From assembly GCA_050084515.1 (NCBI GenBank), contig CM114271.1:46190001-46254000 (forward strand): a stretch of 64,000 nucleotides of DNA, written 5' to 3'. This document shows positions 12,095 to 64,000 of the stretch, one piece after another. The notes beneath the pieces were generated by a model. The model searched no databases and was not told the origin of the DNA. It saw nothing but the letters and a program-made list of their open reading frames with translations. Source of the DNA: Blasia pusilla (Eukaryota). Both the position numbers and the translations under genes were made by a program. Position 1 is the first letter of the stretch. Every line of letters begins with the position of its first letter.

Positions 12095-12314
12095 TATATA
12101 AGAGAGGAAGATGGCTTTCCTAAGCCATCTTTCTCATGTTGGGCCGTTGGAGCACCTCCCTTGTATGTGTGTGAGCTAGGACTAGGGTGCTAGCGTCCGG
12201 ATTCCTTGATAGCACAGGGTGGACGAGGCTCAATATGCTGATGTAGATTGAGGAGTGGAGTTTTAGGTCGGGTGTGCCATTTTTATTACTCTTTATTTTT
12301 AAATGAGAAAGATG
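12095..12314 (+). promoter_or_regulatory. TATA box, predicted transcript start and self-priming PBS of element 1
   Basis: TATATAA 12095-12101. CATCTTTCTCAT 12126-12137 is the exact reverse complement of ATGAGAAAGATG 12303-12314, which lies just after repeat A1. Confidence 0.75.
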
Positions 12315-16660: not shown

Positions 16661-17049
16661 GGTGATGGCCGGATGAATCAGTTACCCGTGCAGTTTGTGG
16701 GACGAGGTGGTCGATCACGAGGCGAGTCTGTGACCACGTTGGCAGCTTTCACAGGTAGTGTTAAGTGGCCAAGAGAGTTGTTGGAGGGGAATGCACATGC
16801 GGAGGATTTCCCAGTAGCGGATAGTCCCACGGAGAGACAGGCCATGGCGGGTGTCTCTTCCCATGTTGGCGAGGCCTCTTCACCATTGTGGGGTACGACT
16901 CGGGAGCTACAGAGGAGTGCCGACGATCTCGTGAGGCAGGCGTGGAGTCGTGTTTTTATCCCAGAGTAGCGAGAGTCACGTGGCGATCGGGATTTTGGAG
17001 TGGAGACGTTGACCCCACTGGATATCACACCTGTTGTGTGGCAGTGCCC

Positions 17050-18020: not shown

Positions 18021-18148
18021 ATGGATGCGAGTGTCATCCATGCCATCACGTCCATGAGTTGGACCATTGCCTACAGGGTCTGTACAGGCATTGGCTGGGG
18101 GCAAGACAAGGAGAGATAGGCACCCATAGACTTCATGGGACGTCGTTC

Positions 18149-21100
18149 TATTGGATTCTCAACATCCACTCCTCTGAGCACCATTGATTTGATTGGCCCC
18201 CTTGTATGAGGAGAAGCCTAGATCGATGGTTCCGACTTAGACGTCGAAAGAGTCATAGTAATATGACGTAGGTGGTTTACGGAGTAGCGTTACTAGGTTT
18301 ATCTAACGAAGAAAAATATTTCTATTAATAGAAACGAAGAAACAAAGAAAAATAGGTAAAAACCCTAGTTTTTCCGAGTAGTCAAATAGTCGGGAGCCGC
18401 AGCGGTAGCGCATTCTCGTATGTTGAGTTATCTCGATTCGAGTTCCATCGAAGCTCTTCAGAAGCGCACGGACGGACTAGGCCACTTTGTATCTCTAAGT
18501 TTTGTAAAGATTTGTGATTTAGTCACTTTCGCTTTTCTCACATGGTATCCGAGCGCAAAGAGGTTTTTCCAAAGTATTTTGTATCCGGCGATCTAGTGTG
18601 TTTGCACAAAATCTTGAGAGATGGCTACTTCTTCTCGTCGATTCGTGCTCGCCCTCCTCCATTTGGGTGAAGGGAAGTTAGATGGGTCTAACTATTCGTT
18701 GTGGAAGTTCAAAATGAGAACTGTTTCGAATCATTTGAGATCCGGGAAACGGCCACGTGGGTCGATTCAAATCCACAAGCTAGTTTGAGTTCGCAAGTTC
18801 ATCTTCATCCGGGGATATCGATCATGTTGTATTATTGGCATGGAGACGCAAAACGCTGATGCTCTATATGCGATTGTCACGAATGTAATCGATTCTGTCA
18901 TGACTCTCATTCAACATACAACCACCTTCTTTGTTGAGGCGTGGAACATTTTGAAGAATCAAGATGAAACGAGGAATGAGACTCGGATTCAGAATGTGGA
19001 GAATCACTTACGTCAGAAATTTTCAGAAGGAGAAAGCGCGGAGCAATTTTTGACAAGGATCAAGAATCTTCAAGATCAGATGGCGTCCGTGGGAATTTCA
19101 AAGTCTAGCGAAGATTTGGCACGCCGGATTTTGCCTCCAAGGTATGACAATTTGGTCACTGCACTGAATACTCAAGTAAGACCCACGCCGCTTACTTTTG
19201 AACAATTTAGTGCAATGTTGGTAGAAGAGGAAATGCGCTTCAAAGCAAGAGAGGGAAGTGACGCAGAATTTACTGCCAACGTACAGAGAGGTAGAAATCA
19301 GGATTACAGTTCAAATGTCAAGAAGAAATTTCCAAGAAAAGCCTTCAAATGCTTTTATTGTGGTAAGCTAGGTCATCTTATCAAAGATTGTAGGAAGAGA
19401 AGTCAGGATGAGAAGAACGGTTGTTTAAGAAGACCTAAGAAGGAGTCTGGAAATTTTGTAGAACTGGGAGAACATGAAGTAGATGCTTGGGTAGCAATAG
19501 AAGAGTTCTGCACACAGGCAGAACATACCACTAAGACAAAGAGTGAAGATGCATAGGTGCTCGATAGTGGAGCATCTAGGCATATGACCAATCATAAGGA
19601 TTGGTATAGCTCCTTCTGACCTCTCTGAGAGCCCATCGTTATTCTTGTTGGGAATAATGCAAAGTGCCTGTAGAAGGGAAAGGCACAATTTCTTTAGTCT
19701 CACAAAAGGAGATGAAAAGAAGTTAAGCGATGTCTTTATGACGTACGAGTTGAAGCGAAATTTGATTTGATGGCGTGTATTATGTGATCGTGACCTAGAA
19801 GTTCGTTTCAAGAAAAGCTGGAGCGATCATTGAGGATGCCAATGGGAAATTAGTGGGTGAAGGTATACGACGTGGAAATATCTACGAGTTGCATGCTTTC
19901 ACGACAAGTGTAGGTCTGAGATCTTAGTAGCGATAAGTTGTGGCATGAAAGATTTGGTCACCTAAGCTTTCCCTTACTAAGTCGGATGCAAAAATCTGGC
20001 ATGGTTCTTTGATTTACCAACAATTTTCGGAGTGTCGGATACTTGTGAAGCTTGTATGATGGGGGCAACACCGACAACCATTTCCACAAGAGTCCGACAA
20101 TAGGGCAAAGGCTCCTCTAGAGTTGATACATCTTGACCTCTGTGGTAAAATGAGAAACGATGGCATTAGGTGGTTCTTCCTACTTCTTTTTAGTTGTCGA
20201 CGATTATAGTAGGAAGATGTGGGTGTATTTCCTTCGTGATAAGGCAAGTGCTTTTGGAAAATTTTAAGTATGGCACAAGCTGGTTGAGAATGAGACAGGA
20301 AAGAAGGTACAAAAGCTTCGCAGCGATCGAGGAGGAGAATTCTTATCAACGAGAATTCAACAAATATTTGGGAGAGCATGGAATCAGTTTACGATTAACC
20401 ACGGCACATACACCACAACAAAATGGAGTTGTTGAGCGTCGAAACCGCAAATCTGATGGTGGAGATGGCAAGATGTATGATGAAAGCAAAAGGTTTGTGA
20501 AGGATTTTGGGTGAAGTCATTATCTTGCCGTATACATTCTAAATAGAAGTGCTACCAAGTCAGTGCAAGGCATGACTCCTCATCAATCATACTCAGGTTA
20601 GGTACCATCAGTCCAACATTTCAGGACTTTTGGTAGTGAGTGTTTTGTACATATTCCTGAAGCATCGAGGACCAAGTTGGAGTCCAAGAGCAGGAAGTGC
20701 ATCTTTATGGGATACAGTGATGAGTCTAAAGCTTATCGCCTTTGGTGTCCTGAGGAAAAGAAGATGCTTGTGAGTCGTGACGTGGTGTTCCAAGAACAAC
20801 CTCGTCAAGTGGCGGATATCAGTGGTCCGTCCACATTATCATCAAACGAAGACATAACCCACCAGAGCACACCACAGATGTTTACACCAGATCATCAAGA
20901 AGAAGAATTTGGTGATGATTACAAAGAGCAACCTGCTCTTCCACTACGGTCGTCATACCCTAAGTGGATAAAGCAGCTCTTGGATGGTAAGGATCCACCA
21001 AAGAATCGATGAAGTTGTTACACATCCAAGGAGATCCAAGAGACTAGAGGAGCAGAATAGAGCTTCCGCACATCTCGTCAACATGGCCCTGATGACAGAG

Positions 21101-23034
21101 GTCTTGAAGGTGGAAGAGCCATCATGCTTGGATGAGGACCTGGCTCATCCTCAATGGAGAGAGGCCATGCAGACGGAGATGGACGCTATTCAAAGAAATG
21201 AAACTTGGACTTTGGTTGAAAAGCCAGAGGACAAGAAGATAATACGCACCAAGTGGGTGTACAAGACCAAGTACAAGTCGGACAGTACATTGGATAAATT
21301 CAAAGCGAGGTTGGTTGCACAAGGATGCTCACAAATCAAAGGCTTTGACTTCTATGAGACTTTTGCTCCCACTGCAAGGATGACAACCATTCGAATTGTT
21401 CTAGCGGTTGCAGGAACAAGACGTTGGCATGTATACTGTACGATGTGAAGTCTGCTTTTCTGAACGGGAGTCTCAAGGAGGAGGTATATGTTTCTCAACC
21501 ACCAGGTTTTGAGACACCCGGATCAGAAGAGAAAGTTTGTTTACTTCATCGAGCATTGTATGGGTTGAAGCAAGCCCCAAGGGTATGGTATCAACGAATA
21601 GATACATTCTTTCGAGAGAAGGGTCTCATGAAGAGTCCTTCAGAAGCAAATTTGTATGTGTTTTGCGAAGATGGGATGTATATATTGATAGTCTTGTATG
21701 TGGATGATCCGATCATCACAGGAGACCCTGAGAAGAAAATAGAGGAAATGAAGGGAGTGTTGGAATCTGAGTTTGAAATGTCGATTTAGGTCTTTTCACT
21801 ACTTTATAGGACTGGAAATTTGGCAACAATCAAATTCTATTTTTCTCTCTCAGCAGAAGTATGCTAGAGAAATCTTGAAGGCATTCGGGATGACCGAGTG
21901 TAAGGCGTGGTCTCGCCAATGGAGGTAGAGTTGAAACTCGATGGAGGATGTTTCACCATTGGTAGATGAAAAGATGTCTGAAAGCTTGTAGGCGTTTGAT
22001 ATTTTTGTGTAACAAGAGACGGACATTAGCTTTGTGGGAGTATTGAGTAGGTTCTCAACTAAGCCTCGTGAGAACCATTGGAAGGCGAGGATGCGTGTGT
22101 TGAAGTACATCAAAGGCACTATCGAGTACGGCATCACCTATGGAGCAGGGACGGAAATTTTTGTGACTCACATTGGGCAGGAGATTCAGATTCTCGAAGA
22201 TCAGTTTTGGGTTATTGCTTCTTGGTAGGATCAGGTGTGGTATCATGGGTCAGCAAGAAGCAACCTACAGTGGCTCTTTCTTCTACCGAGGCAGAGTACA
22301 AGGCGGCTTGTTATGCTTCTTGTGAAGCAGTATGGTTGAGATGGATACTAGAGGATATAGGAGAAGCACCAGAAAGTGCTACTGTAATGTGGTGTGACAA
22401 TCAGAGTTGCATTGCCATAGCACATAATCCTGTGTTTCATGCTCGTACAAAGCACATAGAGATCCAGTACCATTTTGTTCGTGAATTGATCGAGAGAGAG
22501 GTTTTGAAGTTAGTCTATTGTCCAACAGAGGATAACCGTGCAGACATCTTCACGAAAGTCTTGAGCGGAGATCGCTTCACCGACATCGAAGGGTCTTGGC
22601 ATAGGTCCAAGACAAGAGTCCACATGAGAATGGATATTGAGGGGGTATTGGATTCTCAACATCCACTCCTCTGAGCACCATTGATTTGATCGGCCCCCTT
22701 GTATGAGGAGAAGCCTAGATCGATGGTTCCGACTTAGACGTCGAAGGAGTCATAGTAATATGACGTAGGTGGTTTACGGAGTAGCGTTACTAGGTTTATC
22801 TAACCCAAAATTTTTCTATTAATAGAAACAAAGAAAAATAGGTAAAAACCCTAGTTTTCCCGAGTAGTCAAATAGTCGGGAGCCGCAGCGGTAGCGCATT
22901 CTCGTATGTCGAGTTATCTCCCAGTTCAGGTTCCATCGAAGCTCTTCTGTGAGCGCACGGACGGACTAGGCCAATTTGTATCTCTAAGTTTTGTAAAGAT
23001 TTCAGTGATTTAGTCACTTTCTGCTTTTCTCACA
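18149..23034 (+). mobile_element. Full-length but decayed Ty1/Copia LTR retrotransposon nested in element 1
   Basis: LTRs 18149-18542 and 22646-23034 (TA..CA); TSD CGTTC at 18144-18148 and 23035-23039; PBS TGGTATCCGAGC at 18543 (tRNA-iMet-like); purine tract before 22646. Confidence 0.96.
18621..22600 (+). pseudogene. Copia gag-pol polyprotein (frameshifted)
   Basis: CFYCGKLGHLIKDC knuckle; VLDSGASRHM protease; WHERFGHL, VDDYSR and QQNGVVERRNR integrase; LYGLKQAPR and LYVDD RT; TEAEY, CDNQS and ADIFTK RNaseH. Confidence 0.93.
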
Positions 23035-23173
23035 CGTTCGAGCAAAGAGTGCAAAGGCGGCTAGAGTAGCACATGTTCATTTTTCGGATGTGGAGCATGG
23101 TGTGGGAGGTCAGAGTGGAGTGGCTGTTGCGGAGGTGGCTAGGGTTGCTACATAGCAACCAAAGCCGGAGGTT

Positions 23174-26100
23174 GTGTCCTCTCCGAGTGAGGTCACGATG
23201 GAGACTTGGGAGCATGTGATAGGTCTCAAGTTGATAGGAGGAGATCGACGGCGAGTTCATAGGTTTCTGAGAGGGCATTTCAATTGTTTTGCCTTCAGTA
23301 TGAGAGACTTGGGTACGCTGAAGGGTCCCGGGATACGGATTGAGTTGGCTAGTGATATGCCGATCTTTTGTCGACCCTACAGGTATTCTGATATGGAGCG
23401 AGCCTTGATTCAGAGCAGGAGTCAGGACTTGTTGGAGGCAGGACTTGTGGAGTTATCACATGGGGAGTATGCATCTGCCACAGTCATGCCGACAAAGAAG
23501 TATATGTATGGCAACTGGACGGATAGGCGGATGTGTGGAGATTACCATCCTATCAACCGACAGACGAGGTCAGATCGGTACGCTATGCCTACTCCTGAGG
23601 AGATCTTTGATGCGGTAGGGCATGCAAAGATCTTCAGTACTTTAGATCTCCGTGCTGGCTATCATCAACTTCCTATCAGGTTGGAGGACAGGGAGAAGAT
23701 AGCATTCTGGGGGATAGATCGGTTCGGGAGAGATTGCTTGTATCAGTGGCGGTTCTTACCATTTGGGTTGAAGAATGTGCCTGCAGAGTTTCAGAGAGTG
23801 ATGGATAGGATTCTGGCTGGCTTGGATTTTGTACAATGTTACATAGATGATATTCTTATCTTCAGTTCCATGGTTGAGGAGCATGAGCGACACTTGGAGG
23901 AGGTGTTTTGGCGATTGCCGTTACATGGACTGAAGTTATATCCAGGCAAGTGCAGATTCTTTCAGGAGCAGATTGAGTACTTGGGACACACCATATACCC
24001 GAGTGGGTTAGGCGTTCAGCAACGAAGGTAGAGGCTATTGCGCAGATTCCATGCCATACAGATGTGAGTCGAGTCCGAGCATTTCTTGGACTGGCGAACT
24101 TCTATCGACGGTATGTGAAGGGTTTTAGTGTGATCGCAAAGTCTTTGACCTTGTTGACGAGACTTGATCAGGTTTGGTTGTGGGGAGATGATCAAGAGCG
24201 AGCATTTCAGGAGCTCAAGGACAGGTTGACGTCCTCACCCATTTTACAAAGACCGGTTAGGGGTCGCCCATTCCAGTTACATACGGATTGGAGCATGTTG
24301 GGTCTAGGAGCAGTGCTTACTCAGAGAGATGACAAGGAGAGGGAGTTTGTTATGGCTTACGCCAGCCGATCGACCAACATTGCAGAGGCGAAGTACATCT
24401 CCTATGAGGGAGAGTGCTTGGCTGCAGTGTGGGTCGTGGCACATTTTAGGTGCTATTTATTCGGCAACCCTTTCACACTTATCACTGATCATCAGCCGTT
24501 GAGGTGGTTGATGGAGTCCGACAAGCTTACGAGCAAGCTTGCCAGGTGGGCTCTATTACTACATGAGTATGAGTTTGAGGTGGTTCATAGGCCAGGTCGG
24601 CTGAACCAAGATGCGGATGGGTTGAGTCGTAACCCATGTCCGAGTCAGAGAGACGACACATGAGCTCGATGGCACGGAGAGAGTGATGAGGAGATGGTGC
24701 CCGGTTGGCATGCATCTGCCTATCTTTGTTGGTTGACTATGGCAGGTCAGCCACAGGTGATGACTCCACTGGTGGGGTTGGATGATGAGTCTTTGGATCC
24801 GGAGGTTAGTGAGGAGGCGAAAGGTGGTCGTGATATCCATGATGACGTGGAGGTTGTGGAGTTCTTGCGCACTGGCATCATTGCGAGTACAGTGAGTGCT
24901 AGGGGAGCGGATCGAGATCCTCTGAGAGAGCCAAGAGGTTCAGGTGGGAGGGGACTCACATTTTGTGGGTATGGGGAGATGGTAGGATACGAGTGGTACC
25001 TCATCCTTCCCAGCGAGCACGTGTAGTGAGACATGTCCATGAGGAGTTGGGACATTTCGGAGTAAAGCGTACTTACAACTTACTCCAGGTTCAGTATTGG
25101 TGGCGCGGCATGCATACTGGAATACAGCAGTTTGTGGCCAGAGCATCCTTCAATGCTCCCACTCCGCAGTTACATCCTTTTCCGATTATGGGTTTAGGTT
25201 ATCGGTGGAGTTTAGACTTTGCGGGACTTTTGCCATTGACTGGGCGTCATCATAGGTACGTGTTGGTCATGGTGGAGCATTTCTCCAAGTGGATAGAGTT
25301 GGTGGCAATACCAGACAAGGCGAGCGAGGGAACAACTTATGCGTTTCTAGATCGTGTGCTTAGTCACTTTGGTGCACCGGCGGAGGTGTTGACTGACCAG
25401 GGTACCGAGTTCAGGGGAGAGTTTCAGGCCCTGTGTGATCAGGCGCCGATAGATCACCGCACCACGTCCAGAGATCATCCTGAGGCGGATGGGTTGGCGG
25501 AGAGAGTGGAGACGGTGAAGAGAGGATTGCGCAAGTATGGCTTGCAGCAGGGACAGTTGAGGGAGTGCGACCTACAGTTGCCATGGTTGACTATGGGTTA
25601 TCGCTTTAGTCGGCAGGCATCCTTTGCGTTATTTTCATCGTACTTTTTGCTCTTTGGGAGAGAGCCAGATTTACCTGCAGCGATTTGACGTGACGTGGAG
25701 GAGGTGTTAGATCTTGATGATCCAGATGTGTGGGTACAAGCATGTTCTCAGAGGGCAGAAGTTTTTCGTAGAGTTATGCCTATGGCCTTTGAGAACTTAG
25801 CTATTGCCCAACATAGAGATACATTGAGGTACGCGACCATTCGTGGAGGAGGTTATCGTCTAGGGATTAGGAGGTTTCATCATGGAGATGACGTGTATTT
25901 ACAGTAAGCGGCACCCACGACGCTAGATGTCACTGTAGGGCGCACGATCCTACGTGTGCGCGAGGTATTGCCGACCAGAGTCCTCATGTTGGAGGGACGG
26001 GATGGTATGGTTTGGAAGGATCATGTGCGCAATTGTGCGCCATGTCATCTTTGGAACGTAGATGGGACGGTGGATCCGAGCTTGGCAGTGGTACCTGCAG

Positions 26101-26240
26101 GCTTGAGGTGTATGTTGTGCGGATCTGCGAGGGGTGCAGCCACCATGTTGGTATGTGATGGTTGTTCTCGAGGCCTGACCCCCCCTCTTGATATGGTTCC
26201 CACGGGATGATGGATGTGTCCGAGATGTGTATAGGGTAGT
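23174..26240 (+). pseudogene. Element 1 RT, RNaseH, integrase and PHD finger (disrupted)
   Basis: RMCGDY, LDLRAGYHQ, PFGLKN, YIDD; TDWSMLGLGAVL, TDHQPL, DADGLSR; HEELGHFG, SLDFAG, TDQG, GLAER; PHD CMLC..VCDGC..WMCPRC with an internal deletion. Confidence 0.93.
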
Positions 26241-26899
26241 AGGTCATGTTAGAGAGATGTGATATTTTCTATCTGGAGTTGGGAGGATCCAACTGCCAGC
26301 TAGGGGGCGGTTGTGTGATCTCCATGTATATGTATGAGTTGATTTTTGTACATGTGTGGATCGATCCGTGTGTGGGGAAGATCGGTGTTGTATGGTGTAG
26401 ATGTGATGAGCGGTGTATGTTGTGTAGCGATATGTATGCGCACGACAGCTGTCACATCTGAGTAGCCGATAGGCCGAGATCTATCGTGGATAGGGCGTAG
26501 GAGCCAGCGGACTATCTTGAGTGTAACTTTGTCCCATGGTGTCGGATGAGGTTGAGGATAGGTCCATTGTGTCAGGAACGGCGTTTTTGACAACTTTCAT
26601 GTTGAGGTCTTTTACAGTTGGGTGACTTGTTGACCAGGTCATCCGCCCTTGTAACCTCTGGTCAACAAGTCTCAATAGTGGCAGACAATCCACACAAAAA
26701 TTGACTCACACCTACCTCGCAACAAAACTCAAAAATTTGCATAATAGTCGACTTACACAAACCCTCATTTACCATCTAGAAAACTATATCTCTACCAAAC
26801 CATCCGCTTCAAGAGAAATTTTTCAATTTGTACAATGGTCAATCAACACTTGATTGTGCAAGGCCTAAAGCTCCTCACAAAACCCAATATGATTAGTCA

Positions 26900-52740: not shown

Positions 52741-53057
52741 AACCGATGTGTCACGTCTTTTAGGATAGATCGATGGGATCTAATAGAGCGCCTTCATGAG
52801 TAGTGGAGGACACGCCCAGTAGGTCAAGGGTGACCTGCTGAGGCCCTTGGAAACCTGAGATGGCAGGTTTTCCCTTCGTTTCGGTTCATTTGGAGCCATA
52901 TTGAGGAACTTACTATTTTAGGTAAGTACCATTTTGAGTATATGATCGACTTACTATTTTTGGTAAGTGGCCTTTGACCTCCTACATCAGGTCAAGAGCC
53001 AAGGAGGTGACTTGGGAGAATAGGTTACCATGGAGAGAGCTTGGGAGAGGAGAGGGG

Positions 53058-53277
53058 TATACCTCAAGGAGAGAGAGCTTGAGAGCTCATTCTCTCTTTG
53101 TTGAACCTCTTGGCATGAGGCGGCGGAGCTATGGTACCTTGCCTTGTGAGTGTAACCCAAGCCTCTCATTAGGAGAGTGGGTTTGGTTTGACATGAGAGA
53201 GAGTGCACACCTTTGAGAGCTATGGTGTGAGATGGTGGAGAGAGAGATTGGATCTTACTTTACAAAGAGAGAATGAG
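53058..53277 (+). promoter_or_regulatory. TATA-like site, predicted transcript start and self-priming PBS of element 2
   Basis: TATA at 53058. CTCATTCTCTCTTTGT 53086-53101 is the exact reverse complement of ACAAAGAGAGAATGAG 53262-53277. Confidence 0.8.
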
Positions 53278-55079: not shown

Positions 55080-57400
55080 AGATGGAGGACCGGGGTAGAG
55101 GACCGCGAGGTTTTCAGGATCTGATGAGGGCACGATTGAGTTGCACGATTTTATAGCGAGTTTAGGAGTTGGTGCGACTCCCGGTAGGCCAAGAACTCTA
55201 GAGAGTTCAACCCATTTACAGCATGGAACGGTATGTTCCAGCATTTAGAGGGGGCGCCCATGGACGATTACCATGAGTTCTCTCAGAGATATGCATGTGA
55301 GATCGAGGCGTGGAGGCTCTACTATGACCCACATTATATGTCATGGACGGAGCCGTTCCCAGATGAGGAGGAGGAGTCAGGAGAGGCTACTACCTCTTCC
55401 ACTAGTGACGTTTTAGGAGGGTCACTCGACGACGGAGCAGCGATTGCACCGTCTAGTCGGGTTCGCCCCAGGTTCAACCCCGTGGTTGAGTTCTTTCTTT
55501 GAGTTGAGGGCGAGCTACCAGGGGGTACGGACGGAGAAGTTGCGGAGCATCCACGACTTCCAGAGGCGCTCGGGTGAGAGTTTGCGTGAGGCTTACACTC
55601 GCTTGCGCCGGTTGATCAACATCACTCAGGGGGTGACAGAGGCTCAGGCTATCTAGTCATGGTATGCGATGTTGGACCGGACCCTGCGGACACAGGTGCG
55701 GGAGGGGGTGCTTCTTATGAACACCTCCCCTACGTTGAGAGATGTTTTTAGGACCGCCGAGAACATTGAGCGCAACATGGCGGAGGAGAGCGTAGCCACC
55801 ATGGGTTCTGGGCGAGAGCAGCCACGATTGTCCGCACCACGTGCAAAGAACGTGGACTCCGAGATAGTTCGACTGTGGCACCACGAGCTCAGGGAGGATA
55901 CCGAGAGGCCGTGCCACAGAGACCTGCGCCTTCATATGCGGCTCAGCAGCAGCCGCCTACTATTACTTGTCGGTCATGTGGTGGAGCCCATCATCAGCGC
56001 GATTGCACTCGTCAGGGTCATGGACGTGTGCCTCAAAGATGGAGGAGGAGATGGTCTTTGCACCAGGAGGTTATCAGTGTGACTATTGTCGAGGTATGGT
56101 CATACACGCGCCAGGTGTTTTAGTTTACATCCTGAGTTACGCCTGGACCGAGGGCGAGAGGGCACCAGAGCGAGTAGCCGGTCCGGGTGGGCCTAGAGAT
56201 CGTGCTCCAGGTGGTCCCGTTGGGGGACGAGGAGCTGGAGTTGCCCGACAGGGTGGTGGAGTTGCCCATGGAGGAGGTAGAGTACCACCACCTAGACGCG
56301 CCGAGGGAGATGCCGGACGTGAGGCTGGGATGGCTGCTCAGATACAACAGCTACAGGAGCAGATTGCCGCTATGGCATTGAGGTTACCCGATGCCGGATC
56401 CGTGGCATCGACATCATATGGAGCAGCCAGAGATCTAGAGGATCTGGATGGATGTGCGGGGTTGCCCAGATGGAGGCCGCCGCAGTTGTGACGCGTGGAG
56501 CAGCCACAGAGTTGGATCCATAGCAAGGGGAAGCTAGTAGACAGACTAGGCTTCCTCAATCTTTCACGTTGTCCGAAGCGATGAGGACCCCATCGATGGG
56601 TCCTCATCAAAGTTCCTGGAGAGTTGGTAATGTTGTTGGTGTGCAAGCACGGAGGGCGATGGGAGAAGCGAGTGTGACGACTCCTATTGTTGATGCTCAG
56701 GAGGGGCATGTGTCGAGCACGTTGTTGGGGGCGGCCACCGTTGTGTACCGCACTCCTTTATTTTCTCGCTTCCGATGTTGTGCGTTGGGAGGTACGCCCG
56801 CCGAGGGGCTGGCCGCTTCACTATGTGAGCGAGTTGGAGTTCTGCATCACGTCGTGAGGTGATTGCAGAGGAGGTGATGGACCTGCCCTTGGAGCGGATG
56901 CCGGGCCGCCCACGTCATATTCATGGCAGTCGCGGGTCGCTAGGATGGCGAGATGCCTGCTAGACCCGCAATAGAGCGTGCCATGGCTTCTCCTGGTGTT
57001 GTGTTGCTGGATAACCGAGGAGAGGTCTTCGGTTGGTGAGTCCTCGGAGGTAGAGCTTTTAGTCCGCAAAGACGTCTTGTTGGATTCAGGAGCGCAACCC
57101 TTGATGTTGGGGAAAGCGTCATTGAGGATTGGGCTTGACGAGAGCCGATGTGGAGTGTTGTCCATTTCGGATCTGAGACATCCTTGGGTGGAGCGAGTAG
57201 TACCACAATATATCACCCGACATGAGGTCGTGGTGAGGATTCGCCGGGACATCCTGAGATGAGTCCGTAGCGCGCCAAGGCGATAGTGGATCGATCCGAG
57301 TCCTACGACGTCTTGGTTGGTGGAGCGATGTTATACCCGATGGGGTTTTCCCTGGATTCTTGGGAGGAGTCGTCCTATAGACCAGGATGGCGTCGGTGAT
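55080..57400 (+). pseudogene. Element 2 gag and protease (disrupted)
   Basis: MFQHLEGAPMDDY, FQRRSGESLREAY, CRSCGGAHHQRDC, LLDSGAQPLM, YDVLVG. Confidence 0.8.
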
Positions 57401-57779
57401 GGGCGCCTTAGCTCATTACCCGTTCGATTCACAGTGCGATGATCGAGCAACGGCCTGGAGAGATGGCGACCTTAGCAGCATTTAGCAGTGCCATCACTTG
57501 GCCTAGTGATTTGATTGAGGGACATGTCCATGCAGAGGATACTCCCGTTCTTGACATTTCTATGGAGAGGAGTGTTATGGTAGCCTGCATCATTCTGGTG
57601 GAGGAGAGGTGCACTGTGGGGCTCGGACCGAGGAGCTTCAACGATTGGATGATGCGACACGCGCACCGCATGGAGCGAGGCGTTTGCACCAGAGCGTGAC
57701 GGGTCTGAGGAACCCGAGGTAGCGGGGAGTGCTACGATGACACCCTTGGATACTACACCCATTGTGTGGTGTACCCGGA

Positions 57780-58731
57780 GGAGGGTATTCGAGTGTTAGA
57801 TCTCTTTGGAGGGATTAGCACCGGGTTAGCTGTTGTTTTGCAGGCAGGAGTGCGAGTACAGCAGTACTTATATGTGGAGAGTGATGATGTTGCAGGCGCG
57901 TCTCACTACGACATGTGGCGCAATTACGCCCTCGTTTTCCCGACTTATTGTGTGCGTCCGCAGATCTGGTACCGAGTTCCCTACCGAGGATATTTTGTTG
58001 TTGGGGGGCGCAGGACTTAGAGCGGTAGGGACCATTGATTTGGTCATTGCCGGTTGGCCATGTCAGGCCAATCGAGTCCGGACGAGGCGGCGGGTTGGTG
58101 ACACTCCATCCGGTTGTTTCGGGAGATGTTGAGGGTCTTACGGCGATTCTGGAGCACCAGTCTCGTTCTCCGGCCTACATTCGGAGAATGTGCCGATCTT
58201 AGAGACTCAGTCACGGGTCGTGACGAGTGCTCATCAGGTGCGTGCCTGGATCGGCCCAGCAGTGTTCTTGGATGCGGCGAGTGTAGGTTCTAGAGCCCAT
58301 CGCCCGCGTCTATGGTGGACCAACTTGGTGCCCCATGCGGTGTTATGGAGGGCGTATGCGAGAGTGGAGCGCCCCTCCCCTTTGTTAGTGGATTCCATTC
58401 GGATCCAAGTCGCCGATCACAGCGGTGAGGCACGATGATCGACCACCGCCGATCGTGGGTCACGGGGTAGGCAGGCCGTGGCGCCTTGCCCACGTTTGTG
58501 AGTTTTCCTGCTTCCTATGCATACAAGGAGGCCGGTCCTGGCTTGGTTTGGGATGACCAGGTTCAGCGGTTGGTGGAGCCCAACGCCGACGAGAGAGAGC
58601 GAGCGATGGGATTTCCCACAGGAGTGACGGCAGTACCATCAGTGTCAGAGGCATCACGACGCCATGTCTTGGGTCAGGCGATGGACCTGAACTGCTTGAC
58701 ATGGATCCTTAGCTTGGGAGTGGCTGAGTAG
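57780..58731 (+). pseudogene. Element 2 DNMT3-like C5 cytosine methyltransferase domain (frameshifted)
   Basis: GIRVLDLFGGISTG; YLYVE; DLVIAGWPCQ; ENV at ~58184; GSRAHRPRLWWTNL; ERERAMGFPTGVT; LGQAMDLNCLTWI. Confidence 0.92.
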
Positions 58732-59058
58732 TGTCGTATGAGATCGCGACAGATCACAACGGTTGCGTTGGTGAGCCCCATGCCTACCGAGACGGTGGAG
58801 GAAGTGGCTAGGGGCGAGACCCGAGGAGATCTACGCACCATGGGAGATCGGGAGAGACACCCTTGGACTTCTTGGGATGTTTTGAAGGTACGCAAGGAGA
58901 TGATAGCCACAGCATTGAGCGTGGTTTCGGGCACTGCACGTGGAGGAGATCAGAGTTTGCAGTTGGCTGTAGGAGAGCGGCCGAGTGTTGTTGTTCGAGA
59001 CGGGGTTGCACCATAGCAACCACCGATACCCGCGCCGGAGAGTCCTACCGTAGTCACG

Positions 59059-62000
59059 ATGGAGACTTGGGAGCTAGATATGGGCCCTAAGTTGACAGGA
59101 GGAGAGCGGCGCCGAATACATCAGTTCCTCAGGAGTTATAGGAGCTGCTTTGCGTTTAGCATGGAGGATTTGGGTACGCTGAAGGGACCGGGGATCCGCA
59201 TTGAGTTGTCGAGTGATATGCCGATCTTCCGACGACTCTATAGGTACAGTGATATGGAGAGGGCTCTGATTCACAGTAGGAGCCAAGACTTGGTCGGAGC
59301 AGGACTAGTGGAGATGTCGCATGGGGAGTATGCATCTGCCACTGTCATGCCCGCCAAGAAGGATGTGCATGGCAACTGGACGAATAGGCGGATGTGTGGG
59401 GATTACCGACCTATCAATCGGCAGACAAAGTCCGATAGGTATGCCATGCCCACCCCTGAGGAGATCTTTGATGCGATTGGTCACGCAAAGGTCTTCAGTT
59501 CATTGGATTTTCGAGTTGGATACCATCAGCTGCCTATCAGATTGGAGGACAGGCAGAAGACGGCATTTTGGGGCATCGATCCTCACGGGAAGGATTGTTT
59601 GTACCAGTGGCGGTTCTTACCATTTGGGTTGAAGAACGCCCCGGCTGAGTTTCAGAGGGTCATGGATAGGATCTTGGCTGTTCTGGATTTTGCTAGGTGT
59701 TATATTGATGACATCGTAGTCTTTAGCGCCACGGTTGAGGAGCATGAGCAACATCTAGAGGAGGTGTTTCGACGATTGCAATTACATGGGCTGAAGCTAC
59801 ATCGAGGCAAGTGCAAGTTCTTCTACGACCAGATTTAGTACTTGGGTCATACGATATACCCAGGGGGCCTTGGTGTTCAGCAGACAAAGGTAGAGGCTAT
59901 CTCACGCATTCCACGCCCTACAGATGTGAGCCGTGTTCGCGCATTCATGAGATTGGCGAACTTCTATCGGCGATACGTCAAGGGATTGATTCGAATGGGC
60001 GCTGACCTTGCTCACCAAGGTGGATCACGAGTGGCACTGGGGGGATGAGCAGAGCGAGCATTTCGATTGCTCAGGACGAGTTGACATCCGCACCCATCTT
60101 GAGGAGACCGATCGGGCGTCCTTTCCGATTGCACCTGATTGGAGCATGTTGGGGCTTGGAGCGGTGCTCACCCAACATGATGATGAGGGTAGAGAGTTTG
60201 TGGTGGCTTACGCTAGCCGCTCGAACAACGCCGCAGAGGTAATCACTCGTATGAGGGTGAGTGCTTGGTGCGGTGTGGGTCGCGCATTTCATGTGTTACT
60301 TATTCGGCAACCCCTTTACCATCATCACTGATCATCAACCACTGAAGTGGTTGATGGAGTCCGACAAGCTTACATGGAAGCTTGCGAGATGGGCTCTGTT
60401 GTTGCAGGAAAATGATTTTCAGGTGGTACATAGACCTGGAACGCTCAACCAGGATGCAGATGGGTTGAGTCGTAACCCATGCCCGAGTCAACGAGATGCG
60501 ACTGGAGCTCGATGGCATGGAGAGAGTGGTGAGGAGTTGGTGCCAGGATGGCACGCGTCAGCCTATTTAGGCATGTTGGCTATGGAGAGCCAGAGTGTGG
60601 AGACTTCGATGGTGAGGTCTAGTGGAGAGTCTTTGGATCCCGAGGCCAGTGAGGACACGACAAGTGGCCGAGATATTCATGATGATGGAGTAGTCTTGGA
60701 GTACCTTCGTACTGGCAGCCTTGCAAGCACCATGGATGCTAGAGAGCGGGATCGGATCCTACAGCGGGCCAGACGGTTCCGTTGGGAGGGGACACATGTT
60801 TTGAGGGTTTGGGAGGATGGCGAGTACGCGGCGAGTGCCGCATCCTTTGCAGAGAGCACGACTAGTGCAGCATGCCCACGAGGAGTTGGGTCACTTTGGG
60901 GTGAAGCGGACATATAGCTTGCTCCGATTCAGTATTAGTGGCGAGGCATGCAGACCGGCGTTCAGCAGATTTGTTGCCAGGTGCATGGTGTGTGATCGGG
61001 TCCGAGCATCGCGTTCAATGCTCCGACTCTACGCGATTGCATCCATTACCGATCATGGGCTTAGGATATAGATGGAGTTTGGATTTTGCAGGACCTTTGC
61101 CCTTGACGGAGCGTCCACGATCGTTATGTGTTGGTGATGGTGAGCACTTCTCGAAGTGGATCGAGTTGGTTGCATTGCACGACAAAGCAAGTGAGGGAGT
61201 AGCTTATGCCTTCCTTGACAGAGTCTTTGAGTCATTATGGCGCACCAGGTGAGGTGTTGCTGACCAGAGTGTACCGAGTTTATTTGTGAGTTCCAGGCCT
61301 TGTGTGATCGGGCGTTGATCGACCACCCGACGACTTGCGAGATCATCCTGAGGCGGATGGATTAGCGGAGAGAGTTGTGCAGACGGTGAAGAGGGTTTAT
61401 GCAAGTATGGCTTGCAGAGAGGTCACCTAGAGATTGGGACCTTGGTTGCCATGGTTGGCGATGGGATCTGATTCAGCAGGCAGGCATCCTTAGCGTCTTT
61501 TTCACCGTACTTGCTACTTTATGGCCGAGAGCCAGATTTATCTGCGGCCATTCGTCGAGATGTTGGTGAGGTGCTGAACCTTGATGACCCAGATGTATGG
61601 GTGCGAGCATGTTCTCAGAGGGTTGAGTTATTTCGGAGAGTGATGCCCATGGCGTTCGAGAACTTGGCGATTGCACAGCATCGGGATACGTTGAGGTATG
61701 CGACTATTCGAGGTGGTGGTTATCGATCAACTATCCGGAGGTTTCATCAAGGAGATTATGTCTATTTGCAGCAGACGGCACCGACGACGTTGGATGTGAT
61801 TGCAGGGCGCACTATCCTGAGAGTGCGTGACATTTTGCCATCGGGTGTTCTCTTGCTAGAGGGACGCGATGGTATGGTATGGAAGGACCATGTGCGTAAT
61901 TGTGCGCCATGTCACCTTCCTAACATTGATGGTACAGTAGATCCGAGCTTAGTAGTAGTTCCTGCAGGCTTGCGTTGTATGTTGTGTGGTTCTGTCCGTG

Positions 62001-62125
62001 GTGCGGCCACGATGCTAGTATGTGATGGGTGTTCGAGAGGATGGCATATGGCATGTTTGACGCCACCTCTCACTAGGGTTCCTCATGGACAATGGATGTG
62101 TCCCAGATGTACATCGAGAAGGTAG
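59059..62125 (+). pseudogene. Element 2 RT, RNaseH, integrase and C-terminal PHD finger
   Basis: RMCGDYR, PFGLKNAP, YIDD; DWSMLGLGAVL, DADGLSR; HEELGHFG..CMVC, SLDFAG, GLAER; intact C4HC3 CMLC..CDGC..WHMAC..WMCPRC. Confidence 0.94.
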
Positions 62126-64000
62126 TTCTACATTCTGACTTGTGTCTATGACATGGATGACAAGGAGGCGACTAACGATGGGGCCACATGAGCACCCGGC
62201 CTTCTTGCTCTTAGCGTCAGAGATGTATGTCATGGTAGGTAGGGATAGATGGCTATCCGGAGTTAGAGGACCTAACCACCAGCTAGGGGGCGATTGGAGA
62301 TATTTTGGTTCTTCTTGTCTCGTTGTTTGGATGCCATGAGTTGCATGGGATCATGCGTGTTTTGTGTGTGTTCGGTGTGACAAATGATGTATGTTGTGTA
62401 GCGATGTGTATCGCACGGCGGTATCACGTCTTTTAGGATAGATCGGTGGGATCTAATAGAGCGCCTTCATGAGTAGTGGAGGACACTTGATGGAGGTCAA
62501 GGGTGACTGCTTTGAGGCCCTTGGAAATCTGAGATAGCAGGTTTCCCCCGTTCGGCTCATTTGGAGCCATATTGAGGAACTTACTATTTTAGGTAAGTAC
62601 CATTTTGAGTATATGATCGACTTACTATTTTTGTTAAGTGGCCCTTGACCTCCTACATCAGGTCAAGAGCCAAGGAGGTGACTTGGGAGAATAGGTTACC
62701 ATGGAGAGAGCTTGGGAGAGGAGAGGGGTATACCTCAAGGAGAGAGAGCTTGAGAGCTCATTCTCTCTTTGTTGAACCTCTTGGCATGAGGCGGCGGAGC
62801 TATGGTATCTTGCCTTGTGAGTGTAACCCAAGCCTCTCATTAGGAGAGTGGGTTTGGTTTGACATGAGAGAGAGTGCACACCTTTGAGAGCTATGGTGTG
62901 AGATGGTGAAGAGAGAGATTGGATCTTACTTTAATTGGAGATATTTTGGTTCTTCTTGTCTCGTTGTTTGGATGCCATGAGTTGCATGGGATCATGCGTG
63001 TTTGTGTGTGTGTTCGGTGACAGCGATGTATGTTGTGTAGCGATGTGTATGCGCACGACAGATGGTAACCCGGCATCACTCTATAAGGAGAGCGCTATGT
63101 TTGAAATTGCGTATAGGAATCTATGAGCACATTTAGGAGAGAAGGAGGTCCAAAGATCCCAAGAACTTTGGAAATCTCAATCTTAAGTGGGAAAAAGAAG
63201 AACCCAAAGTTCAAGCTTGAGAAGATGAACACATTGGGCCTTAAATTGAAAAGATTGGATCACCATGGAAATAGTTACAAACAAAATTCTAAACGTCCGC
63301 CATAGTCCTCCTCCTCTTCCTCCATTCCACTCCTCAAATTCCTCTATTTTGTGAGTCAAGCATGTGTTGATTATGAATTATCATGGATGAGTCATGATCA
63401 ACACATGCTTGATTTCCAAATAAGGGTATTTATATTTAATTCCATGCATGCTATATACTCCTTTTTAAAATTTACAATATGTTCTATTGAAAATATTTAA
63501 GTCATTCTTTATGAGCCAAAATAAAAAAATCTTAAAATAGCTCTTTTTATGCCATACTTCCAAAAAACCTTTGTGGATTTATGTCTCTTGACGAACCATA
63601 AGAAGTATGTAGGAAAATTATTGGAAACACTTAGCAAGAAAAGCATTATCTACCTAGTGAGATTGAATATGTAATTTTGGATAATTAAAACAAATATTAG
63701 AATTCCAGAAAAATACTTTAGATGTAAAAAAATATAAGAAGTTTTAAAAGAGAAATATTTTTTCCTGTTAACATTATTCACAAAATTATGCCACTTGATG
63801 GAGAAATACTTTTTATCATTTGATTGAGAGATAATGAGAGTTAGATCGATAAGAGATTTTATTGATGCATATTATTGCACAACATCAATTATTATTAATA
63901 TTTTAATTAAAAATTTATGATTTTATCATTCAAAAACCTTTGAGTTTGAAATTATTTTTCAATGAGAATAAATATAAATTTATTACATATTTTACAAAAA

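What the first reader, a model, noticed from the sequence alone, without database searches (positions are those of the whole stretch)
57780..58731. DNMT3-like cytosine methyltransferase embedded between protease and RT
Seen: C5-MTase motifs I, II, IV (catalytic PC), VI (ENV), VIII, IX and X are in order. SRAHRPRLWWTNL and ERAMGFP resemble the DNMT3 signatures AAHRARYFWGNL and ERVFGFP. Known, from memory: DNMT-carrying retrotransposons were reported in dinoflagellates and the charophyte Klebsormidium, so the capture is not unprecedented, but here it sits in a land-plant genome. Inference: as a Pol subunit it would be packaged and could methylate nascent cDNA or the target site.
Basis: partly seen in the sequence, partly recalled or inferred. 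Interest (0 to 1): 0.85.

Follow-up and report, generated by a model that had tools for sequence, protein, structure and literature searches.

The report
Decayed DNA-methylase retrotransposon in a liverwort
A broken copy of a jumping gene that carries its own DNA-methylating enzyme, a kind described so far in algae, sits in a liverwort genome and belongs to a large family that also lives in other liverworts and in mosses.

Summary
Window 57769-58728 (+) carries a complete set of C5 cytosine-methyltransferase motifs in order. It is a pseudogene: at least three frame changes, in-frame stops, and only 263 of 333 profile columns still open.

It lies inside a 10.3-kb Ty3/gypsy-type element (52749-63060) with TG..CA ends and a 4-bp target duplication. 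The repeat layout is A-coding-B-A-B, the layout printed for KnitGypsy-Dnmt3 of Klebsormidium. A second, older, equally broken copy lies at 11821-26660.

The host is a liverwort: a host exon is 75% identical to Marchantia. Intact relatives are gene models of Marchantia, Calypogeia and Sphagnum, and 381 clusters match at E<=1e-30.

The domain is DNMT3-type by sequence and by predicted fold. Catalytic residues are invariant in 21 diverse relatives, and dN/dS between lineages is about 0.15.

The methylase ends the Gag-protease frame and is followed by a conserved in-frame UAG (both window copies; 41 of 42 informative loci), then RT-RNaseH-integrase-PHD.

RNA reads from the same species label show related copies transcribed, apparently in sense.

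Verdict: a new land-plant member of a known kind. This copy is dead and what the enzyme does is untested.

The parts
52745..52748 (+). left copy of the 4-bp target-site duplication (GATG)
   Evidence: Read directly from the sequence. The same 4 bases follow the element at 63061-63064.
52749..53262 (+). repeat A1, the 5' terminal repeat, which starts TGTCAC
   Evidence: 95.7% identical over 517 columns to 62421-62933. Its start is homologous to the LTR start of copy B.
55149..57000 (+). gag-like part of the first frame, broken
   Evidence: tblastn of Marchantia ORF1 (P0205, residues 26-~600) lands here in several frames.
57083..57091 (+). aspartic protease active-site motif DSG, within LLDSGAQPLMLGK
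   Evidence: Translation. The motif is shared with relatives. Two relatives, P0234 and P0242, carry a precomputed PF13650 hit. The Pfam hit in P0014 is below the cut-off.
57769..58728 (+). DNMT3-type C5 cytosine methyltransferase domain, a pseudogene in three frames with stops
   Evidence: Relatives pass PF00145.
58729..58731 (+). premature in-frame stop just after the domain, where relatives read Q
59014..59016 (+). conserved in-frame TAG between the Gag-PR-DNMT frame and the RT frame, followed by CAA CCA
   Evidence: The same is seen at 23153-23155 in copy B and in 41 of 42 informative metagenome loci.
59068..60512 (+). reverse transcriptase and RNase H, broken
   Evidence: Pfam RVT_1 E 1.3e-27 and RT_RNaseH E 5.8e-11; tblastn map.
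60820..61975 (+). integrase region, broken
   Evidence: tblastn with P0042. The homologous ORF of copy B hits Pfam rve at 2.2e-15 and Integrase_H2C2 at 1.4e-12.
61976..62110 (+). PHD finger at the C-terminal end of the integrase frame
   Evidence: Pfam PHD E 2.5e-11. The same domain is in relatives.
62281..62292 (+). polypurine-like tract AGCTAGGGGGCG directly before repeat B1
   Evidence: Conserved at the same place in L064 and L062. Its role as the plus-strand primer is inferred.
62293..62417 (+). repeat B1
   Evidence: 94.5% identical to 62934-63057.
62422..62933 (+). repeat A2
62934..63060 (+). repeat B2, the right end of the element, which ends ..GACA
   Evidence: RNA reads run up to 63060 and then into unlike sequences, with agreement about 0.5 (table 7).
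63061..63064 (+). right copy of the target-site duplication (GATG)
11821..26660 (+). second, older copy of a sister lineage (copy B). Its LTRs are 11821-12032 and 26450-26660, 92.5% alike. It is interrupted by a nested element at 18149-22804.
17036..18024 (+). DNMT domain of copy B, broken; motif IV reads PCH; 303 of 333 profile columns are open

Best explanation
The stretch is the decayed methyltransferase domain of one old copy of a Ty3/gypsy-type retrotransposon family that carries a DNMT3-type cytosine-5 DNA methyltransferase. It sits in a liverwort genome.

Shown:
- The element spans 52749-63060. It has TG..CA ends, a 4-bp target duplication and the repeat layout A-coding-B-A-B.
- The coding order is Gag, protease, DNMT, a conserved UAG, then in the same frame RT, RNase H, DDE integrase and a PHD finger.
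- The family is large, and its catalytic residues are kept under purifying selection between lineages.
- Related copies are transcribed in the same species label.

Inferred:
- In working members the methylase is translated as the tail of the abundant Gag-protease product, and is joined to Pol only when the UAG is read through.
- It is then released by the element's protease, travels with the particle or pre-integration complex, and methylates DNA de novo. The target is most likely the element's own new cDNA or the freshly integrated copy, as proposed for the algal elements.
- The PHD finger on the integrase steers insertion by reading histone tails.

This particular copy, and copy B, are dead and do nothing enzymatic.
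For: Domain and order.

Element limits:
- A1/A2 are 95.7% alike and B1/B2 94.5% alike.
- The ends read TGTCAC...GACA, flanked by GATG on both sides.
- The same A-coding-B-A-B layout with 4-bp duplications occurs in two unrelated metagenome loci: L064 (CATA) and L062 (AATC).

Integrase, RT, RNase H and PHD.

DNMT3 type:
- A profile of 21 relatives matches DNMT3A at E 2.3e-24, DNMT3C at 4.8e-22 and DNMT3B at 1e-21. NtDRM scores 9e-16, DRM2 1.4e-11, M.HhaI 4e-10 and DNMT2 7e-7. No DNMT1 chain is listed at E<=0.01.
- The AlphaFold model of relative P0010 has pLDDT 88.9. Every match listed down to rank 48 is DNMT3A, B or C, with TM-score up to 0.84 when normalised to the target.

Selection:
- The C and Q of motif IV, the E of ENV, and R..R..N of motif VIII are invariant in 21 diverse relatives. 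The N of ENV is kept in at least 90%.
- dN/dS is 0.15-0.17 between distant lineages, against 0.62-0.95 between close dead copies.
- Copy A against copy B gives 0.17 over 238 codons.

Stop codon:
- DNMT and RT are in phase 0, with one TAG followed by CAA CCA in both window copies.
- 39 of 66 loci show a stop followed by Q (29 TAG, 10 TAA). Of the 42 loci that hold the landmark, 41 keep a stop there.
- Four database ORFs end at the same alignment column.

Family size: 6202 representative clusters at E<=1e-3 and 381 at E<=1e-30.

Named hosts: Marchantia polymorpha, M. paleacea, Calypogeia fissa and four Sphagnum species.

Host of the window: an exon of a TBL gene is 75% identical to Marchantia, 71% and 70% to Riccia, 62% to Calypogeia and at most 57% to the other named hits, which are seed plants, a moss and a lycophyte.

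Transcription:
- 694, 664 and 785 reads from three RNA runs lie on the element.
- They fall almost entirely in the orientation expected of sense RNA in the usual stranded library.
- Only 12, 19 and 22 of them are 99% or more identical, so they come from other copies.
Against: - No enzyme activity, packaging, cleavage or readthrough has been measured for this family; only the anatomy is shown.
- Pfam scores of relatives are modest (35-51 bits), and the window's own pieces score nothing in Pfam.
- dS between lineages is 1.6-3.3, which is saturated. It could not be computed for copy A against 5 of 7 loci. The dN/dS values are therefore rough.
- Only 4 of 66 metagenome loci have the domain in one open frame. 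No wholly intact element was seen in any DNA in hand, so present-day activity is not shown.
- A conserved RNA structure that could drive readthrough was not convincingly found.
- Copy B shows no B2 repeat after its 3' LTR, so the A-B-A-B layout is not universal.
- No Klebsormidium sequence could be obtained, so kinship with KnitGypsy-Dnmt3 rests on shared features, not on a tree.
Confidence: 0.8

Rival explanations
1. The methylase module is kept by the family for something other than methylating its own cDNA. It might act in trans on host chromatin or on older copies (self-limitation, or mimicry of gene-body CG methylation). It might methylate RNA, or serve as a DNA-binding or tethering module.
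For: - The domain sits in the abundant Gag-protease frame rather than in Pol. That fits a job needing many molecules, or one outside the particle.
- The 2018 paper itself calls the role unclear and probably host-specific (PMC5890265, Discussion passage).
- Dead copies in the loci are broken mostly by in-frame stops: 78 single stop codons against 35 frame changes. Heavily methylated DNA could decay that way. The direction of those changes was not determined.
Against: - The catalytic Cys, the ENV Glu and the motif VIII arginines are invariant in 21 diverse relatives, which argues against a purely structural role.
- The closest solved relatives are DNA enzymes (DNMT3A/B/C). The RNA enzyme DNMT2 scores E 7e-7 against 2e-24.
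- Nothing in hand separates action in cis from action in trans.
Confidence: 0.25
2. The land-plant elements are not descendants of the lineage seen in Klebsormidium. They acquired a DNMT3 domain on their own, or reached bryophytes by horizontal transfer.
For: - The DNMT tree does not follow the hosts. The Marchantia and Sphagnum clades are sisters (support 98/93) inside a clade that leaves out both copies from this liverwort.
- Related elements have the domain at another place, in the order RT-RNaseH-DNMT-integrase-PHD. So the module has moved or been taken up more than once.
- The 2018 paper describes recurrent acquisition.
Against: - The unusual A-coding-B-A-B repeat layout combined with Gypsy-type domains is what the paper prints for KnitGypsy-Dnmt3 (legend of its Fig. 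4c), and it is found here.
- All Gag-PR-DNMT rows form one clade with 100/99 support.
- Several old lineages kept unevenly in different hosts explain the tree as well as transfer does.
Confidence: 0.2
3. The stretch is a fragment of a host DNMT3 gene that merely lies beside retrotransposon debris, or it is an assembly chimera.
For: Bryophytes do have host DNMT3 genes (PMC10952607 and PMC9516144, passages read). The window copy is broken, as a pseudogene would be.
Against: - The same protease-DNMT-stop-RT order is present twice in this window in copies only 67% identical. It is also present in dozens of loci and database ORFs.
- The domain lies inside an element bounded by a target duplication.
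- No PWWP or ADD domain was found in the 7 Gag-PR-DNMT relatives scanned.
- RNA and DNA reads from other copies cover the junctions.
Confidence: 0.02

Closest known systems
KnitGypsy-Dnmt3 of the charophyte Klebsormidium nitens (de Mendoza et al. 2018, PMC5890265; passages read, figures and supplements not seen)
   Same: - An LTR Gypsy-type element with a DNMT3-related domain whose motifs are not rearranged.
- Repeats in the order A-coding-B-A-B.
- Key catalytic residues are kept.
- Purifying selection on the domain: the paper gives Ka/Ks < 0.2; here it is 0.15-0.17 between lineages.
   Different: - The host here is a land plant (a liverwort), with relatives in other liverworts and in mosses.
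- The paper places the domain in 'the Pol polyprotein ORF'. Here it ends the Gag-protease frame ahead of a conserved UAG. Whether that differs from Klebsormidium could not be checked.
- No sequence comparison with the algal copies was possible.
Elements with the order RT-RNaseH-DNMT-integrase-PHD (metagenome proteins P0042, P0053, P0060, P0047; the one named record is Haematococcus lacustris, P0245)
   Same: - A homologous DNMT3-type domain, 32-42% identical, matched at E 1e-85 or better for most.
- Homologous RT, RNase H and integrase.
- A PHD finger at the end of the integrase.
   Different: The methylase lies between RNase H and integrase, not between protease and RT. These rows fall outside the Gag-PR-DNMT clade (support 100/99).
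SymbioDIRS-Dnmt3 and SymbioLINE-Dnmt of Symbiodinium (same paper)
   Same: Retrotransposon-borne DNMT. The DIRS type has DNMT3-like domains and A-coding-B-A-B repeats. The paper's abstract states that retrotransposon DNMTs methylate CG de novo.
   Different: These are DIRS and LINE elements. The DIRS type inserts with a tyrosine recombinase. Here there is a DDE integrase and 4-bp target duplications.
Host DNMT3A/3B/3C of animals and DNMT3 of mosses
   Same: The catalytic fold, the motif order I to X, and the signatures around motifs VIII and IX.
   Different: No PWWP or ADD reader domains on the same chain. The domain is embedded in a transposon polyprotein. It is about 22% identical to human DNMT3A in the structural alignment.
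Plant DRM methyltransferases
   Same: Distant DNMT3 relatives; matched at E 9e-16 (NtDRM) and 1.4e-11 (DRM2).
   Different: DRM has its motifs rearranged (stated in PMC5890265); here the order is the ordinary one. The matches cover only part of the domain.
Chromoviruses (Ty3/gypsy elements with a chromodomain on the integrase)
   Same: A histone-reader module is fused to the C-terminus of the integrase. The function is by analogy only.
   Different: No targeting test has been done.
Leaky-stop expression of Pol, as at the gag-pol UAG of murine leukaemia virus, and the UAG-CAR-YYA context of tobamoviruses (both recalled, not from a call)
   Same: One in-frame UAG separates an abundant upstream product from the polymerase. 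Both window copies read UAG CAA CCA.
   Different: Most loci read CAA CCC. No stimulatory RNA structure was shown. Readthrough is not demonstrated.

Membership tests
C5 cytosine methyltransferase (Pfam PF00145) | Motif I (FxGxG, SAM binding), motif IV (PC, catalytic Cys) and motif VI (ENV), in that order | tested here: met
   DLFGGISTG, GWPCQ and ENV are read in copy A. Copy B has PCH at motif IV.
C5 cytosine methyltransferase (Pfam PF00145) | Score above Pfam's gathering cut-off | tested here: inconclusive
   The four window pieces gave no hit at E<=0.1. All 9 intact Gag-PR-DNMT or domain-only relatives that contain the domain score 34.9-51.3 bits against a cut-off of 22.
C5 cytosine methyltransferase (Pfam PF00145) | An open reading frame able to give an enzyme | tested here: not met
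   Copy A has three frame changes and stops; 70 of 333 profile columns are not in any open piece. This copy is a pseudogene.
DNMT3 clade | Closest to DNMT3 among solved methyltransferases, by sequence and by fold | tested here: met
   (values given in the For line).
DNMT3 clade | Motif order not rearranged, unlike DRM | tested here: met
   Profile columns run 1 to 333 in genomic order.
DNMT3 clade | Groups with DNMT3 in a tree that includes plant DNMT3, DRM, DNMT1, CMT and bacterial enzymes | not testable with these tools
   No host DNMT3, DRM or Klebsormidium sequence could be brought in as a stored protein. The tree holds transposon-borne domains only.
DNMT3 clade | PWWP and ADD reader domains of host DNMT3 proteins | tested here: not met
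   The 7 Gag-PR-DNMT relatives scanned with Pfam show no PWWP or ADD. This bears on the claim 'host DNMT3 protein', not on the catalytic domain.
Gypsy-DNMT3 elements (KnitGypsy-Dnmt3 type) | Ty3/gypsy gene set: protease, RT, RNase H and DDE integrase, in that order | tested here: met
Gypsy-DNMT3 elements (KnitGypsy-Dnmt3 type) | Repeats arranged A-coding-B-A-B | tested here: met
   Met in copy A, L064 and L062. Not seen in copy B.
Gypsy-DNMT3 elements (KnitGypsy-Dnmt3 type) | [quoted passage not shown] | tested here: met
   dN/dS is 0.15-0.17 between lineages, with saturated dS.
Gypsy-DNMT3 elements (KnitGypsy-Dnmt3 type) | Sequence kinship with the Klebsormidium copies | not testable with these tools
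   No record named Klebsormidium appeared among the 36 and 63 hits listed.
DIRS retrotransposons | Tyrosine recombinase and insertion without a target duplication | tested here: not met
   A DDE integrase is present (rve, Integrase_H2C2). 4-bp duplications flank three copies.

The most novel reading that the evidence does not exclude
Methylase-carrying Gypsy elements are not an algal oddity of one charophyte. They may be an old, very diverse lineage of the green lineage, found in liverworts, mosses and at least one chlorophyte.

This lineage makes a DNMT3 enzyme in Gag-like amounts behind a leaky UAG. It inserts a permuted A-coding-B-A-B DNA with a DDE integrase, and it is still transcribed in bryophytes. 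If so:
- the capture is far older, or far more mobile between hosts, than the 'acquisition in the K. nitens lineage' proposed in 2018;
- DNMT counts in bryophyte genomes are inflated by transposon ORFs;
- the role of transposon-made DNMT3 becomes testable in Marchantia, a genetic model that carries many such ORFs.
Probability: 0.35. Interest if true: 0.65.

Novelty: new member of a known kind. Interest (0 to 1): 0.5.

Why it matters
Transposons that carry the enzyme normally used to silence them are a paradox. So far they have been described by name only in dinoflagellates and one charophyte alga.

This window shows the same kind of element in a land plant. The searches show that it is common in liverworts and mosses, including the model Marchantia polymorpha, where the ORFs sit in the annotation as hypothetical proteins. 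One of them is named a DNA (cytosine-5-)-methyltransferase by UniRef.

That gives a tractable organism in which to ask what a transposon-made DNMT3 does. It also warns that surveys of bryophyte methyltransferase genes may count transposon copies.

The conserved UAG after the methylase changes the expected dosage. The enzyme would be made with Gag, not with the scarcer Pol.

For this locus itself there is no functional consequence: the copy is dead.

Tried and rejected
- Pfam on the four single-frame pieces of the domain: no hit. Replaced by a profile of intact relatives.
- Whole genome of the window: none is held. Copy number, intact copies and host DNMT3 of this species could therefore not be examined.
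- Index of sequencing runs: no RNA holder listed.
- Depth in DNA run X1: 194,235 of 10,516,715 contig records lie on the element at 95% identity or more. This fits a repeated family, but the tool warns that depth is no copy number, so no number is given.
- A joint 52748>63075 in two contigs of X1 (21 letters on the shorter side) looked like an empty site. It does not fit the target duplication and was set aside.
- RNA structure downstream of the UAG: RNAalifold on 10 copies gave -9.16 kcal/mol with a covariation term of only -0.35. The one steady hairpin (CUUGGG...CCCAAG, about 47 nt downstream) lies in conserved coding sequence. Inconclusive.
- A B2 repeat after copy B's 3' LTR, and a B repeat after A1 in copy A: none found.
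- Primer-binding site: the bases after A1 begin CAAAGA in copy A and L062, and two bases further on in L064. No tRNA match was tried.
- ESM Atlas: the nearest cluster is a streptophyte PF00145 cluster; the next two are phage methylases at the same score. Uninformative.
- Names for ten long relatives: none informative.
- Literature: eight full-text searches and passages of seven papers turned up no statement of retrotransposon-borne DNMT3 in bryophytes. A 2025 paper and a 2026 preprint speak of 'streptophytes', citing the 2018 work. Their supplements, and those of the 2018 paper, could not be opened and may list such copies.
- Dating the insertion from 4.3% (copy A) and 7.5% (copy B) repeat divergence: not attempted, since no substitution rate for this liverwort is in hand.
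- Reading as a host DNMT3 fragment: rejected (see rivals).
- A homodimer prediction for the domain was considered and not run. The report makes no binding claim.
Full report
WHAT IS AT THE COORDINATES

Stop-to-stop frames on the + strand between 57.7 and 58.8 kb read, one after another:
- VLDLFGGISTG
- DLVIAGWPCQ
- ENVPIL...SRAHRPRLWWTNL
- ERERAMGFP...GQAMDLN

They lie in different frames. Pfam found nothing in any single piece at E<=0.1. I therefore looked for intact relatives.

The 101-residue piece 58133-58438 found 36 longer proteins. Many carry PF00145 and four carry RT and RNase H families as well. They are named as hypothetical proteins of Marchantia polymorpha, M. paleacea, Calypogeia fissa and Sphagnum species.

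A profile of the domain from 8 of them, run against every open piece of all six frames of the window, gave five ordered matches at 57769-58728 and six at 17036-18024, and nothing elsewhere. E-values were 1e-16 to 3.5e-46.

But the gene is broken:
- three changes of frame;
- an in-frame stop at 58130-58132 and another at 58729-58731;
- 263 of 333 profile columns still in an open piece, against 303 for the second copy.

THE ELEMENT AROUND IT

The stretch from about 54 to 62 kb is richer in G+C (0.53-0.56) than most of its surroundings. It is bounded by repeats:
- 52748-53262 matches 62421-62933 at 95.7%.
- Unexpectedly, 62293-62417 matches 62934-63057 at 94.5%.

The layout is therefore A1, coding, B1, A2, B2. 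The left end reads TGTCAC and the right end GACA. GATG flanks both ends. RNA reads run up to 63060 and then continue into unlike sequences (table 7), as expected at the end of a dispersed repeat.

Two unrelated metagenome loci show the same layout with their own 4-bp duplications: L064 with CATA and L062 with AATC. A polypurine-like tract, AGCTAGGGGG(G)CG or ...GTG, stands directly before B1 in all three.

Inside the element the order is:
- a gag-like region;
- a protease motif (DSG);
- the methylase;
- RT (Pfam RVT_1);
- RNase H (RT_RNaseH);
- the integrase region;
- a PHD finger.

The better-kept second copy confirms a DDE integrase (rve, Integrase_H2C2).

The paper that first described such elements prints the arrangement 'A-coding region-B-A-B' as typical of DIRS. 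[quoted passage not shown] The window's element fits that description.

How a DDE-integrase element comes to insert such a permuted DNA is not known to me. By inference only, if the tract before B1 primes the plus strand, the unit copied as a long terminal repeat would be B+A. The inserted form would then be a circular permutation of it, opened at the palindromic B|A boundary (GACA|TGTC).

THE SECOND COPY

11821-26660 is a sister element:
- its 3-kb RT-to-integrase stretch is 76% identical to copy A and its methylase 67%;
- its LTRs are 92.5% alike;
- another retrotransposon is nested at 18149-22804.

Its methylase is also broken and reads PCH at motif IV.

Between the two copies, over 238 shared codons, dN is 0.27 and dS 1.6, a ratio of 0.17. 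Two old lineages of the family therefore live in this genome, and the domain was under constraint while they diverged.

WHICH METHYLASE

A relative consisting almost only of the domain (P0010) matches DNMT3A best among all PDB chains, at E 6e-12.

A profile of 21 diverse relatives ranks the solved enzymes as follows:
- DNMT3A 2.3e-24
- DNMT3C 4.8e-22
- DNMT3B 1e-21
- NtDRM 9e-16
- DRM2 1.4e-11
- M.HhaI 4e-10
- DNMT2 7e-7

An AlphaFold model built on that alignment is confident, with pLDDT 88.9 and pTM 0.88. Every match listed down to rank 48 is DNMT3A, B or C.

The motif order is the ordinary one, not that of DRM. In the 21-sequence alignment the C and Q of motif IV, the E of ENV and the R..R..N of motif VIII never vary, and the N of ENV is kept in at least 90%.

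I could not bring in plant host DNMT3 or Klebsormidium sequences. 'DNMT3-type' therefore rests on these rankings, not on a full tree.

A CONSERVED STOP AFTER THE METHYLASE

Four database ORFs end about 70-80 residues after the domain, at the same alignment column.

In the window the methylase frame and the RT frame are the same frame. They are separated by one TAG at 59014-59016 followed by CAA CCA. Copy B has TAG CAA CCA at 23153-23155.

Among the 66 metagenome loci:
- 42 hold the ETWE landmark of the RT frame's start.
- 39 have a stop directly before the Q (29 TAG, 10 TAA).
- 2 more keep the stop and have turned the Q codon into a second stop.
- 1 is rearranged.

There are 37 distinct sequence contexts among the pattern matches at and near this site.

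A stop kept at one codon in copies that are otherwise peppered with random stops is most simply a working feature. The element would make Gag-PR-DNMT, and by occasional readthrough Gag-PR-DNMT-RT-RH-IN-PHD. UAG CAA CCA fits the UAG-CAR-YYA readthrough context of plant viruses as I recall it. Most loci read CAA CCC, and I found no convincing downstream structure. Readthrough is therefore inferred, not shown.

The methylase belongs to the abundant upstream product.

HOW LARGE THE FAMILY IS

The domain profile scored against 1.84 billion cluster representatives gives 6202 proteins at E<=1e-3, 1326 at 1e-10 and 381 at 1e-30. The best 150 all score below 1e-54, and many are 1000-3400 residues long.

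Two architectures appear:
- Gag-PR-DNMT, ending at the stop. Named hosts are liverworts and mosses.
- RT-RNaseH-DNMT-integrase-PHD in one frame. The one named host is the green alga Haematococcus lacustris.

I built a tree of 33 domain rows. I chose 27 of the 372 proteins in hand, added 4 of the 66 loci, and added the two window copies read with X at the gaps. In this tree:
- all Gag-PR-DNMT rows sit in one clade (support 100/99);
- within it, a bryophyte-type clade (100/99) holds both window copies;
- the Marchantia (100/100) and Sphagnum (100/100) clades are sisters (98/93), and both window copies fall outside them.

The tree thus does not mirror the hosts. Either several old lineages persist unevenly or elements have moved between hosts. 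I cannot tell which.

STATE OF THE COPIES AND SELECTION

Only 4 of 66 loci have the whole domain in one open frame. Breaks are mostly in-frame stops: 116 same-frame junctions, 78 of them a single stop codon, against 35 frame changes.

Between close copies dN/dS is 0.62-0.95, which is decay after insertion. Between distant lineages it is 0.15-0.17. dS is saturated, so these ratios are rough. The paper gives Ka/Ks < 0.2 for the Klebsormidium copies.

HOST AND EXPRESSION

A host gene of the trichome-birefringence-like family lies at about 32.7-35.8 kb. One exon is 75% identical to Marchantia, 71% and 70% to two Riccia species, 62% to Calypogeia and at most 57% to the other named hits, which are seed plants, a moss and a lycophyte. 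The genome is that of a liverwort nearer to the complex thalloid group.

Three RNA-seq runs filed under the same species label as the best DNA holders gave 694, 664 and 785 reads on the element, from the 6-12% of each run that was read. Nearly all are 95-99% identical: only 12, 19 and 22 reach 99% or more.

The reads are strongly one-sided. Over 58276-58636, first mates on the minus strand reach depths of 13, 9.7 and 22, against 0.8, 0.2 and 2.6 on the plus strand. In the usual stranded library that means sense RNA, and it excludes DNA carry-over.

Other copies of the family, not this one, are therefore transcribed.

WHAT IS KNOWN AND WHAT IS NEW

Retrotransposon-borne DNMTs were described in Symbiodinium and in Klebsormidium nitens. 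The paper's abstract states that retrotransposon DNMTs methylate CG de novo, with the suggestion of self-methylation of cDNA (PMC5890265).

Later texts speak of DNMT3 in retrotransposons 'in streptophytes and dinoflagellates' (PMC12344493) and of 'streptophytes (Gypsy-DNMT3)' (preprint 10.64898/2026.05.21.726589). I read passages only of both.

None of eight full-text searches found a statement about liverworts or mosses. A Marchantia review that discusses DNMT3 does not mention such elements (PMC9516144, passages).

I therefore file this as a new, land-plant member of a known kind. Three details I did not find in print:
- the conserved stop that puts the methylase in the Gag-protease product;
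- the 4-bp target duplications around the A-coding-B-A-B form;
- the second architecture in green algae.

VERDICT

The motif observation is confirmed. The reading as a DNMT3-like enzyme carried by a retrotransposon in a land plant is right.

The functional inference is unproven, and 'Pol subunit' needs correcting. This copy is a fossil.

Noticed in passing
window 18149-22804: A retrotransposon is nested in copy B just after its methylase domain. It is flanked by 159-nt direct repeats 99% alike. Its ORFs read like a copia-type element (zinc knuckle, then integrase-like, then RT with YVDD). This was read from translations only; no family search was run.
   Followed up: no
window 32687-35795 (+): A host gene of the trichome-birefringence-like (PC-esterase) family, in several exons. 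It was used here to place the genome among liverworts (75% identical to Marchantia).
   Followed up: partly
proteins P0042, P0053, P0060, P0047, P0245: Related elements carry the same DNMT3-type domain between RNase H and integrase, in the order RT-RH-DNMT-IN-PHD. One of them also has a Tudor domain. The only named host is the chlorophyte Haematococcus lacustris. The module has changed place within otherwise homologous elements.
   Followed up: partly
proteins P0021, P0205, P0237, P0248, P0030 (Marchantia gene models): Several numbered Marchantia gene models are ORFs of this transposon family. One, Mp_8g17980, is named a DNA (cytosine-5-)-methyltransferase by UniRef. Counts of DNMT genes in bryophytes may include them.
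   Followed up: no
loci L001-L066: Dead copies in metagenome contigs are broken mainly by in-frame stop codons: 78 single stops (35 TAG, 23 TGA, 20 TAA) against 35 frame changes. Transition-driven decay of methylated DNA could give this pattern. The direction of the changes was not determined.
   Followed up: partly
tree: The Marchantia and Sphagnum copies are sisters, to the exclusion of both copies from this liverwort. The element tree does not follow the host tree. The cause could be old lineages kept unevenly or transfer between hosts.
   Followed up: partly
window 59060-59095 and the same place in 9 other copies: An inverted repeat CUUGGG...CCCAAG about 47 nt after the conserved UAG is kept in all 10 copies aligned. 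It lies in conserved coding sequence (ETWE..GPKL), so the structure is unproven.
   Followed up: partly
window 4149-5150 and 5224-5732: A tandem repeat of a 351-nt unit (3 copies, 85-96% alike) and a further pair 354 nt apart.
   Followed up: no
window 48719-51956 (-): Long open frames on the minus strand, of 439, 353 and 210 residues, that look like the RT-bearing ORF of a non-LTR retrotransposon. They were not searched.
   Followed up: no
window 53263-55148: About 1.9 kb lie between repeat A1 and the first match to the gag-like frame. This is an unusually long leader, and its content was not examined.
   Followed up: no
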